Shown here in pieces: positions 40,670 to 42,291 of a stretch of 64,000 bases of DNA. The stretch lies in the NCBI RefSeq assembly GCF_009914755.1, contig NC_060931.1. One strand, written 5' to 3'. The position numbers were made by a program, and so were the translations under genes. Origin of the DNA: the human T2T-CHM13v2.0 reference genome, Homo sapiens. Position 1 is the first letter of the stretch. Every line of letters starts with the position of its first letter. The notes beneath the pieces were generated by a model. It saw nothing but the letters and a program-made list of their open reading frames with translations. It was not told the origin of the DNA and did no database searches.

Positions 40670-42291
40670 AGAAAGCTGAAACTGGATCCCTTCCTTACAC
40701 CTTATACAAAAATCAATTCAAGATGGATTAAAGACTTAAACGTTAGACCTAAAACCATAAAAACCCTAGAAGAAAACCTAGGCATTACCATTCAGGACAT
40801 AGGCATGGGCAAGGACTTCATGTCTAAAACACCAAAAGCAATGGCAACAAAAGCCAAAGTTGACAAATGGGATCTAATTAAACTAAAGAGCTTCTGCACA
40901 GCAAAAGAAACTACCATCAGAGTGAACAGGCAACCTACAAAATGGGAGAAAATTTTCACAACCTACTCATCTGACAAAGGGCTAATATCCAGAATCTACA
41001 ATGAACTCAAACAAATTTACAAGAAAAAAACAAACAACCCCATCAAAAAGTGGGTGAAGGACATGAACAGACACTTCTCAAAAGAAGACATTTATGCAGC
41101 CAAAAAACACATGAAAAAATGCTCACCATCACTGGCCATCAGAGAAATGCAAATCAAAATCACAATGAGATACCATCTCACACTGGTTAGAATGGCAATC
41201 ATTAAAAAGTCAGGAAACAACAGGTGCTGGAGAGGATGTGGAGAAATAGGAACACTTTTACACTGTTGGTGGGACTGTAAACTAGTTCAACCATTGTGGA
41301 AGTCAGTGTGGTGATTCCTCAGGGATCTAGAACTAGAAATACCATTTGACCCAGCCATCCCATTATTGCAGAGTGTCTGAGAGTGTTTGCTTTATGAGGT
41401 TGAATGAAGATGACTTGGAATGTTCACTTTTAAGTATGTTACTTAAAGTTGAAACAAGATCAGTCTTAATAATTTTCAAATTTATAAATTTTCAAATTTA
41501 TAATCCCAAAGGATTATAAATCATGCTTCTACAAAGACACATGCACACGTATGTTTATTGCATTCAGGGGAACCCCAGCATAGTGGGAGAAGCACAAGTG
41601 GCTCGGAAGTTGAGTGCTGAGATCCATGCAACCCCCAAGGAGGCCTCACTCACCCAGCATCAGGGAGAGGAAGGCAGGTGTGGAGTTCGAGCAGTCACAC
41701 CACCAGTGTCAGTAGCCCTGTCCCAGGATCCCAGAGCTGTCACCTTACAGCTGCAGAGAAACCAGCCCTGTATCTTTATTGCAGCATTACTCACGATAGC
41801 AAAGACTTGGAACGTTTATTGCGGCATTATTCACAATAGCAAAGACTTGGAACCAACCCAAATGTCCAACAATGATAGACTGGATTAAGAAAATGTGGCA
41901 CATATACACCATGGAATACTATGCAGCCATAAAAAATGATGAGTTCATGTCCTTTGTAGGGACATGGATGAAATTGGAAATCATCATTCTCAGTAAACTA
42001 TTGCAAGAACAAAAAACCAAACACCGCATATTCTCACTCATAGGTGGGAATTGAACAATGAGAACACATGGACACAGGAAAGGGAACATCACACTCTGGG
42101 GACTGTTGTGGGGTGGGGGGAGGGGGGAGGGATAGCATTGGGAGATATACCTAATGCTAGATGACGAGTTAGTGGGTGCAGCGCACCAGCATGGCACATG
42201 TATACATATGTAACTAACCTGCACATTGTGCACATGTACCCTAAAACTTAAAGTATAATAATAATAAAAAAATTAAAAGAAAAATAAAAAA
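40670..42291 (+). mobile_element. 5'-truncated young L1 (L1PA2/PA3-like, non-Ta) carrying an internal complex insertion
   Basis: ORF2 C-terminus (40805-41314, 41872-42054), 3'UTR with the GAG diagnostic (gatgacGAGttag), A-rich tail, TSD agaacttgt at 40661-40669 and 42292-42300. Confidence 0.93.

What the first reader, a model, noticed from the sequence alone, without database searches (positions are those of the whole stretch)
41367..41813. Young L1 carries a ~450-bp patchwork built partly from exact copies of nearby upstream DNA
Seen: L1 runs normally to ccatcccatta (41365). It is then followed, in order, by (a) tgcagagtgtctgagag at 41367-41383, identical to 38168-38184; (b) 41386-41482, identical at 97/97 to 35563-35659, 5.8 kb upstream and in the same orientation; (c) a 16-nt tandem duplication aattttcaaatttata (41471-41502); (d) an L1 piece at 41505-41562; (e) about 207 bp of non-L1 sequence; (f) a second L1 piece. 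The original L1 resumes at gtttattgcggc (41814). The outer TSD is intact. Established: chains of short locally templated segments joined by microhomology are typical of FoSTeS/MMBIR and polymerase-theta end joining. The L1 consensus 'actg' matches 'actg' at the start of donor (a). Inference: a multi-switch repair event, or template jumping during or after integration, sampled chromatin 3-6 kb away. Zero divergence between copy and donor implies a recent event.
Basis: partly seen in the sequence, partly recalled or inferred. Interest (0 to 1): 0.8.

Follow-up and report, generated by a model that had tools for sequence, protein, structure and literature searches.

The report
Multi-donor repair patch inside an L1
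A truncated L1 retrotransposon on human chromosome 7 carries a 448-base scar stitched together from copies of two nearby upstream stretches, a piece of chromosome 19 and re-copied bits of the L1 itself, a natural example of an already known kind of sloppy DNA-break repair.

Summary
A 5'-truncated L1 (40670-42291, 9-bp TSD AGAACTTGT) is interrupted at 41366-41813 by a mosaic. It contains 17 nt identical to 38168-38184 and 97/97 nt identical to 35563-35659; that match extends to 35560 with one T lost. It also contains a perfect 16-nt tandem duplication, two L1 pieces, and 206 nt of non-L1 DNA.

New here:
- The 206 nt come from chr19:59216937-59217142 (minus strand), 202/206 identical.
- The composite is unique in CHM13.
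- Almost no L1 sequence was lost.
- The re-copied L1 pieces carry about 8-fold more private substitutions than the L1 arms (6/102 vs 8/1145).
- Only one of six junctions has 2 nt or more of microhomology.
- The upstream donor of the 97-mer is bracketed by a 13-nt direct repeat.

Best reading (about 0.5): a break in the resident L1 was repaired by iterative, error-prone copying from several donors and finished by end joining. This kind of event is documented in human germline and cell assays. Formation during L1 integration is not excluded. "Zero divergence means recent" is not supported: 0/114 differences is compatible with the 1.9% seen in the chr19 piece (P=0.11). This is a new member of a known kind, of moderate-to-low interest.

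The parts
40661..40669 (+). 5' target-site duplication AGAACTTGT
   Evidence: identical 9-mer at 42292-42300
40670..41365 (+). L1 left arm (ORF2 3' part), 5'-truncated
   Evidence: aligns to L1 relatives; 7 private differences in 697 columns of 40672-41368, including 41366
41366..41368 (+). junction J1: TTG. L1 relatives read CTG (17/17 have C at 41366) and donor (a) reads cacTG, giving 2 nt exact or 4 nt imperfect microhomology
41367..41383 (+). piece (a): 17-nt copy of 38168-38184
41384..41482 (+). piece (b): 99-nt copy of 35560-35659 with one T of a TTTT run missing (97/97 exact from 41386)
41471..41503 (+). perfect 16-nt tandem duplication (2.1 copies). The unit is the last 12 nt of (b) plus 'tata', so it spans a junction
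41499..41562 (+). TA>AT at 41503-41504 plus 2 private substitutions (41528, 41532). Its last 10 nt, gtttattgca, duplicate the start of the right arm
41563..41768 (+). piece (e): 206-nt copy of chr19:59216937-59217142 (minus strand), 202/206 identical, no gaps; 3 of the 4 differences are transversions
41769..41769 (+). single filler T with no assignable template
41770..41813 (+).
41814..42291 (+). L1 right arm with 3' UTR and A-rich tail
   Evidence: 2 private differences in 449 columns
42292..42300 (+). 3' target-site duplication AGAACTTGT
38168..38184 (+). donor of piece (a), in the ~795-nt spacer of a tail-to-tail inverted Alu pair
   Evidence: I1, I2
35560..35659 (+). donor (or sister copy) of piece (b)
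35540..35552 (+). first copy of the 13-nt direct repeat CCACAGGGAGAAG that brackets the (b) donor
35661..35673 (+). second copy of the 13-nt direct repeat CCACAGGGAGAAG

Best explanation
A single 5'-truncated L1PA-type insertion already sitting at this site suffered one break, or two breaks about 55 bp apart, in its ORF2 3' region. The break was repaired by a low-processivity, error-prone copying process. A 3' end was extended in short bursts on a series of templates:
- 38168-38184 (15-17 nt);
- 35560-35659 (99 nt);
- the L1 itself ('tata');
- a stutter back onto the last 12 nt just made;
- the L1 again (about 64 nt);
- chr19 (206 nt);
- the L1 (44 nt, starting 14 nt behind where it left);
- finally the L1 40 nt further back, after which the sequence runs on normally.

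Most joins are blunt, so the steps were probably closed by end joining rather than primed at microhomology.

Shown: the pieces, their donors, their order and orientation, the near-absence of L1 loss, the uniqueness of the composite, and the excess of substitutions in the re-copied L1 pieces.

Inferred: that it was one event, that it followed integration, and which enzymes were involved. The scar has no evident function.
For: - Donors are intact and the copies exact or near-exact: 17/17 and 97/97, 202/206.
- Each non-L1 piece has exactly one other place in the genome. The 17-mer has 4 places in the genome.
- chr19 is the donor, not the recipient. Piece (e) has GC 0.58, like its chr19 surroundings (0.51-0.62) and unlike the chr7 context (0.38-0.42).
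- Natural L1 copies read ccatta|ctgggtatata|cccaaagg. At most 11 nt, and possibly only 'gg', were lost at the first site, and none at the second. This fits two fixed ends of a break in resident DNA.
- There are three back-steps: the 16-nt perfect duplication spanning a junction, a 14-nt re-copy and a 40-nt re-copy. These are the stutter expected from repeated dissociation and re-priming.
- S1+S2 carry 6 private substitutions in 102 nt against 8 in 1145 nt of the arms (Poisson P=1e-4, Fisher P=5e-4).
- All 9 private differences in the arms (8 plus junction base 41366) are transitions, whereas piece (e) shows 1 transition and 3 transversions (Fisher P=0.014). This is consistent with copying errors.
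[quoted passage not shown] Germline templated insertions copy from up to five templates (PMC8421209). [quoted passage not shown]
Against: - Microhomology, the defining junction feature of MMBIR and TMEJ, is present at only 1 of 6 junctions.
- Pieces (a)+(b) show no substitution in 114 nt while S2 shows 4 in 44. The error rate is therefore uneven (S1+S2 vs a+b+e: Fisher P=0.016). S2 may instead come from another L1 copy.
- No cross-species or population data could be consulted. Neither 'one event' nor 'after integration' is demonstrated.
- The divergence of (e) from chr19 is 1.9% pairwise, about 1% per lineage. This is of the same order as the arms' private divergence (0.7%), so the patch could be as old as the insertion.
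- The 13-nt direct repeat bracketing the (b) donor is not explained by this model.
Confidence: 0.5

Rival explanations
1. The same break in the resident L1, but the pieces were pre-formed free fragments joined blunt-end by classical NHEJ. The fragments would be DNA released from damaged or over-replicated loci, or cDNA made from RNA. This is a multi-fragment 'class 2 templated sequence insertion' or a cut-and-paste style capture, rather than serial invasion and synthesis.
For: - Five of six junctions have 0-1 nt of microhomology or a 1-nt filler.
- Class 2 TSIs are described as patches from distant regions with NHEJ features and no poly(A) (PMC5110952, passages).
- Piece (e) has no poly(A) and no splice-site-like borders at chr19.
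- The (b) donor is bracketed by a 13-nt direct repeat. That would suit a discrete excised or copied unit.
Against: - The three overlapping re-copies of the flanking L1, and a perfect 16-nt duplication that spans a junction, are more easily made by a stuttering polymerase than by ligating random fragments.
- Two of the three foreign donors lie within 6 kb in cis and in the same orientation.
- The human-cell study argues that multi-donor inserts are too frequent for independent fragment capture.
Confidence: 0.2
2. The patch was made while the L1 was integrating. During first- or second-strand synthesis the polymerase (ORF2p or a host enzyme) left the L1 template, copied nearby chromosomal DNA or RNA and a chr19 sequence, and returned several times to the L1 template.
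For: - The patch lies inside one intact TSD pair.
- The per-lineage divergence of (e), about 1%, is similar to the arms' private divergence of 0.7%, so the two ages cannot be separated.
- L1 RT template switching to other RNAs is documented for chimeric insertions (PMC13174262, passages).
Against: - In the passages read from the 2026 catalogue (PMC13174262), the described L1 chimeras (for example 5' transductions and upstream exons spliced onto an L1) carry the foreign part upstream of the L1, not inside it.
- Here the L1 resumes on both sides at almost exactly the position where it left. That would need three or four precise returns to the same RNA.
- (a) and (b) appear in the reverse of their genomic order. 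They cannot be one spliced or continuous transcript.
- S1 and S2 are much more mutated than the arms. That is unexpected if all were copied from one L1 RNA by the same RT.
Confidence: 0.18
3. Two or more unrelated events at different times: a local templated insertion at 41369-41498, and a separate chr19-derived insertion plus a 40-nt tandem duplication at 41553-41813.
For: - The two insertion sites are separated by about 54 nt of in-place L1.
- (a)+(b) show 0/114 substitutions while (e) shows 4/206.
- (e) is flanked by its own 14-nt imperfect direct repeat gtat[g/c]tttattgca.
Against: - The difference 0/114 vs 4/206 is not significant (P=0.11).
- By inference, not computation, two rare complex insertions landing about 55 bp apart in a 1.6-kb element by chance is very unlikely.
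- The in-between L1 stretch itself carries excess changes.
Confidence: 0.08
4. An assembly chimera in T2T-CHM13.
For: None found. It could not be tested directly with reads.
Against: A mis-join of reads would be identical to its sources. Piece (e) differs from chr19 at 4 sites, S1 and S2 differ from every other L1 in the genome, and the joins are embedded within 450 bp, far shorter than a long read.
Confidence: 0.02

Closest known systems
[quoted passage not shown]
   Same: Several donors are concatenated in one insert (up to 6 reported). Donors can be on other chromosomes and are enriched near the break. Junctions are a mix of blunt and microhomology joins.
   Different: Those are somatic events at an engineered acceptor, with inserts of 240 bp or less. 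This is a 448-bp event fixed in an assembled germline genome, inside an L1, with re-copies of the flanking sequence.
MMBIR / FoSTeS templated insertions (PMC2621351; germline MMB-TIs in PMC8421209; an 861-bp three-switch insertion in PMC6902434; passages read)
   Same: Serial template switches, back-steps that create duplications, an eventual return to the original template, donors left intact, and complex germline examples with up to five templates.
   Different: Microhomology is found at only 1 of 6 joins. The MMB-TI catalogue searched for templates within 100 bp, whereas here they lie at 3.2 kb, 5.8 kb and on another chromosome. There is no associated large copy-number change.
Class 2 templated sequence insertion polymorphisms (PMC5110952; passages read)
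   Same: A patch from a distant genomic region with no poly(A) and end-joining-type junctions.
   Different: The passages read describe a TSIP as a sequence templated from one distant genomic region and do not describe multi-piece inserts. This insert has several pieces. The chr19 piece is flanked by a 14-nt imperfect duplication of the recipient, a class 1-like trait, but without a poly(A) tail.
Chimeric L1 insertions made by RT template switching or RNA ligation (U6/L1, Alu/L1, mRNA/L1; PMC13174262; passages read)
   Same: Foreign sequence and L1 lie within one TSD pair.
   Different: In the passages read, the chimeras described carry the foreign part upstream of the L1 portion. Here it is internal, with co-linear L1 on both sides, and two pieces come from DNA a few kb upstream in reversed order.

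Membership tests
MMBIR/FoSTeS-type templated insertion | Inserted segments are copies of sequences present elsewhere, with the donors intact | tested here: met
   17/17, 97/97 and 202/206 matches; donors still in place
MMBIR/FoSTeS-type templated insertion | Microhomology (2 nt or more) or microhomeology at the join-points | tested here: not met
   1 of 6 junctions qualifies (J1: TG exact, ACTG with one mismatch). The other five have 0-1 nt or a 1-nt filler
MMBIR/FoSTeS-type templated insertion | [quoted passage not shown] | tested here: met
   The L1 is re-entered three times and runs on from 41814 to its tail
MMBIR/FoSTeS-type templated insertion | Error-prone synthesis near the joins | tested here: inconclusive
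   S1+S2 carry 6/102 private substitutions vs 8/1145 in the arms (P=1e-4), and (e) is transversion-rich. But (a)+(b) carry 0/114, and a foreign L1 donor for S2 is not excluded
Polymerase theta-mediated end joining with templated insertion | Short inserts copied from sequence close to the break, with repeated aborted synthesis and microhomology use | tested here: inconclusive
   The 16-nt stutter and the 10-, 14- and 40-nt re-copies of the flank fit. The 99- and 206-nt pieces from 5.8 kb away and from chr19 do not, nor do the blunt joins. The typical size range is recalled, not taken from a call
Class 1 TSIP / L1-mediated trans insertion | TSD of 5 bp or more plus a poly(A) tail plus a TTTT/A site (PMC5110952) | tested here: not met
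   Piece (e) has a 14-nt imperfect flanking repeat but no poly(A) on either strand
Class 2 TSIP (DSB patch) | No TSD or poly(A); NHEJ-type junctions; patch from a distant region | tested here: inconclusive
   No poly(A), blunt joins and a 1-nt filler are met. A flanking duplication of the recipient is present, and the insert has several pieces
L1 chimeric insertion by RT template switching | Foreign sequence joined to the 5' end of the L1 part inside one TSD pair | tested here: not met
   Foreign pieces are internal, with 696 nt of co-linear L1 lying 5' of them
L1 twin priming / 5' inversion | An inverted 5' L1 segment | tested here: not met
   All L1 pieces are in the same orientation

The most novel reading that the evidence does not exclude
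The patch is a record of the L1 integration reaction itself. While the insertion was being completed, the extending strand repeatedly left the L1 template and copied exposed single-stranded DNA. The two local donors both sit in structure-prone units: one is a 108-nt segment bracketed by a 13-nt direct repeat, the other lies in the spacer of an inverted Alu pair. A chr19 locus in nuclear contact was also copied. If so, L1 integration intermediates would be shown to sample chromatin kilobases away and on other chromosomes, and template choice would be guided by non-B DNA.
Probability: 0.12. Interest if true: 0.6.

Novelty: new member of a known kind. Interest (0 to 1): 0.3.

Why it matters
This is a cleanly resolved, fixed germline example of a multi-donor insertion. 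It has two cis donors, one interchromosomal donor, three re-copies of the flank, and every junction readable to the base. The host is a dated repeat, so its unaffected arms give an internal mutation-rate control. That control makes two debated points measurable in natural sequence: how error-prone the patch synthesis was, and how often joins lack microhomology. It does not reveal a new mechanism, and the site is intergenic with no evident function.

Tried and rejected
- Inherited composite: rejected. Pieces (e) and (b) each have one other place in the genome, and the (d) 31-mer and (f) 32-mer are unique at 0 mismatches.
- A single foreign L1 as donor of both S1 and S2: not found.
  - 138 other copies carry one of the two S1 variants within the 31-mer, and none carries both. 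Only the first 100 rows of that list were visible.
  - 17 other copies are within 1 mismatch of the S2 32-mer. Nine of them and the chr21 copy lack the S1 variants. The remaining seven were not inspected.
  - The nearest S2 look-alikes are chr2:141490723 (42/44, one difference being a CpG C>T) and chr21:22694101.
- An S2-type L1 subfamily: rejected. Of 287 copies with the 'tactc' variant, almost all have 'cacaat' and a different background.
- One spliced RNA as the source of (a)+(b): rejected because their order is reversed relative to the genome. This is read directly from the sequence.
- (e) as an exon: no AG/GT borders at chr19. ORFs at the chr19 locus were listed but not searched further.
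- Flanks of the (b) donor as part of a repeat family, which could have shown whether the 108-nt unit is an insertion: no such family was found.
- No primate or pangenome sequence was available in any tool.
- The L1 subfamily was not named from a library. 'L1PA2/3-like' rests on recall of the 3' UTR diagnostic trinucleotide and on 2.6-2.7% median pairwise difference to relatives.

Full report
**What is there**

The window (CHM13 chr7:38812001-38876000) holds a 5'-truncated L1 at 40670-42291 on the + strand. It has an A-rich tail and is flanked by the 9-bp duplication AGAACTTGT at 40661-40669 and 42292-42300. Natural L1 copies fetched from the same genome read ...ccatcccatta|ctgggtatata|cccaaagg...cacgtatg|tttattgc... 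across the affected region. In the window this continuity is broken at 41366-41813.

**Check of the observation**

A short-word self-BLAST of 41200-42000 against the whole window gave two significant hits.
- 41386-41482 = 35563-35659: 97/97, E 4.7e-51.
- 41367-41383 = 38168-38184: 17/17, E 0.003.

The non-L1 stretch 41563-41768 had no source in the window.

The repeat finder and TRF confirmed the following.
- The 97-mer.
- A perfect 16-nt tandem duplication at 41471-41503 (2.1 copies).
- A 40-nt tandem repeat at 41775-41853, 92% identical.

The 17-mer occurs four times in 3.1 Gb: here twice, plus chr6 and chr8. A same-strand copy 3.2 kb away is therefore not chance.

Reading the donor context shows that the 'tg' between (a) and (b) is also donor sequence. 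Piece (b) is 35560-35659 with one T dropped from a TTTT run.

**Source of the 207-bp piece**

A search of the window's own genome with 41563-41775 found two places: the window itself and chr19:59216937-59217142 on the minus strand. The match is 202/206 with no gaps.

The chr19 neighbourhood has GC 0.51-0.62. The piece has GC 0.58, while the chr7 context has 0.38-0.42. So chr19 is the donor.

The borders at chr19 are not splice-site-like, and there is no poly(A).

**Uniqueness**

- 35500-35720 has only its own place and the patch.
- A 1-kb query around it gave 43 matches. Only the patch covered the (b) interval. Apart from the query's own place and one short self-match within the query, the remaining 40 matches cover only the query's last ~150 bases (855-1001), a repeat at about 35955-36100.
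- The (d) 31-mer is unique at 0 mismatches.
- The (f) 32-mer is unique at 0 mismatches and has 17 other places at 1 mismatch.

The composite was therefore not inherited from a prolific source element. It arose at this locus, next to its two cis donors.

**Anatomy of the joins**

- J1, L1 to (a): the window reads cccattaTTG|cagag. L1 relatives have C at 41366 (17/17) and the donor reads gcaCTGcagag. This gives 2 nt of exact microhomology, or 4 nt if 41366 changed later.
- J2, (a) to (b): 0 nt.
- J3, (b) to 'tata' (L1-like): 0-1 nt. It is followed by a re-copy of the last 12 nt of (b), then 'tata' again. The duplicated unit therefore contains a junction and must have formed with or after it.
- J4, S1 to (e): 0 nt.
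- J5, (e) to S2: a single filler T.
- J6, S2 to the right arm: 0 nt.

If 41366-41368 and 41499-41504 are counted as mutated L1, only 'gg' was lost at the first site and nothing at the second.

S1 ends with gtttattgca. S2 starts 14 nt back (gtatCtttattgca...) and runs 40 nt into the right arm's sequence. The right arm then starts again at gtttattgcgg.

**Mutation load: the sample**

3038 L1 copies match the 32-mer when its three variable sites are left open. Of the first 100 listed:
- 80 have the right arm's state;
- 18 have the CpG-decayed A;
- 1 has the G variant;
- 1 has the C variant.

I fetched 20 chr1 copies in list order, 10 per strand, taking only rows with the right arm's state and skipping A-variant rows.

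**Mutation load: results**

Median pairwise difference to these copies:

| Segment | Median difference | n |
|---|---|---|
| Left arm | 2.59% | 11 (coverage over 85%) |
| Right arm | 2.70% | 19 |
| S1 | 5.26% | 19 |
| S2 | 9.09% | 20 |

Next I counted columns where at least 80% of aligned relatives disagree with the host. For the arms, relatives under 94% identity were dropped, leaving 18 and 19 in use. The counts:
- 7/697 in 40672-41368, including 41366;
- 2/449 in 41814-42262;
- 2/58 in 41505-41562, plus TA>AT at 41503-41504;
- 4/44 in S2.

S1+S2 at 6/102 against 8/1145 in the arms gives Poisson P=1e-4 and Fisher P=5e-4.

All 9 arm differences are transitions. Piece (e) shows 1 transition and 3 transversions (Fisher P=0.014). 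The patch as a whole shows 5:5 (P=0.03).

**Is S2 from another L1?**

No L1 in CHM13 carries the S2 haplotype. The nearest are chr2:141490723, which differs by a C>T at the CpG plus the 'gtatC' base, and chr21:22694101. Neither has the S1 variants.

138 copies carry one of the two S1 variants and none carries both (first 100 rows visible).

The 'tactc' variant is common only in a different background.

An ectopic L1 donor for S2 is therefore possible but unproven. Copying errors explain the data about equally well.

**Age**

4/206 is 1.9% (95% CI 0.5-4.9%), or about 1% per lineage. This is similar to the arms' 0.7% private divergence.

Zero differences in the 114 nt of (a)+(b) has P=0.11 at the (e) rate.

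If the transversion-rich differences in (e) are copying errors, the event could still be young. The data cannot date it.

By recall, such divergences correspond to several million years at about 1e-9 per site per year. No call supports that conversion.

**Mechanism**

The pattern has five parts:
- intact donors;
- two cis donors in the same orientation but in reversed order, plus one donor on another chromosome;
- three back-steps onto the flank;
- almost no loss of recipient sequence;
- excess substitutions.

It fits repair of a break in resident DNA by repeated short bursts of synthesis on different templates, closed by end joining.

The passages I read describe closely similar events.
- Multi-donor inserts at human DSBs: up to 6 donors, enriched near the break, 59% with one blunt end and one microhomology end.
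- Germline templated insertions from up to five templates.
- An 861-bp three-switch insertion at PLP1.

Strict membership in MMBIR or TMEJ is not supported at the junction level, because only 1 of 6 joins shows microhomology. A fragment-capture (class 2 TSI) variant therefore stays a serious rival.

Formation during L1 integration cannot be excluded. It would, however, need several precise returns to the same L1 template. In the passages read, the L1 chimeras described (for example 5' transductions and upstream exons spliced onto an L1) carry the foreign part upstream of the L1, not inside it.

**Unexplained**

The (b) donor lies almost exactly between two copies of CCACAGGGAGAAG (35540-35552 and 35661-35673). 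The window has only 7 non-simple exact direct repeats of 13 nt or more at 30-400 nt spacing. Three are Alu-internal, one is in the patch, and one flanks a masked repeat like a TSD.

The upstream copy may itself be an insertion with a 13-bp duplication, or a slippage-prone unit. There is no third copy.

Donor (a) lies in the spacer of a tail-to-tail inverted Alu pair.

**Verdict**

This is a well-resolved new example of a known class of repair scar, not a new mechanism.

Noticed in passing
window 35540-35673: The 13-nt direct repeat CCACAGGGAGAAG brackets a 108-nt unit that contains the (b) donor. It looks like a target-site duplication around a small insertion with no poly(A). There is no further copy in the genome.
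   Followed up: partly
window 37217-37585 and 38325-38727: A tail-to-tail inverted Alu pair (arms 84-87% complementary) with a ~795-nt spacer. The spacer contains the 17-nt donor (a).
   Followed up: no
window 61612-61628 and 61929-61945: The 17-nt exact direct repeat CCAAATTTCCTTTTCTT flanks a masked repeat (61599-62001), probably the TSD of an Alu-sized insertion.
   Followed up: no
window 23202-23214 and 23323-23335: The 13-nt direct repeat TGAGCCAAGGCTG lies in GC-rich unique sequence. Its 121-nt spacing matches that of the 35540/35661 repeat. No sequence similarity between the two loci was seen, so this is probably coincidence.
   Followed up: partly
L002 about 560-960 (chr19:59.216 Mb): A minisatellite-like array about 550 bp from the donor of piece (e). 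It reads as repeated SQSHSEASTSGVAST units in one frame, about 48 nt per unit.
   Followed up: no
window 38187-38259: Immediately 3' of donor (a) there is an old interspersed repeat. Seven other genomic places match it at 75-84% identity. The family was not named.
   Followed up: no
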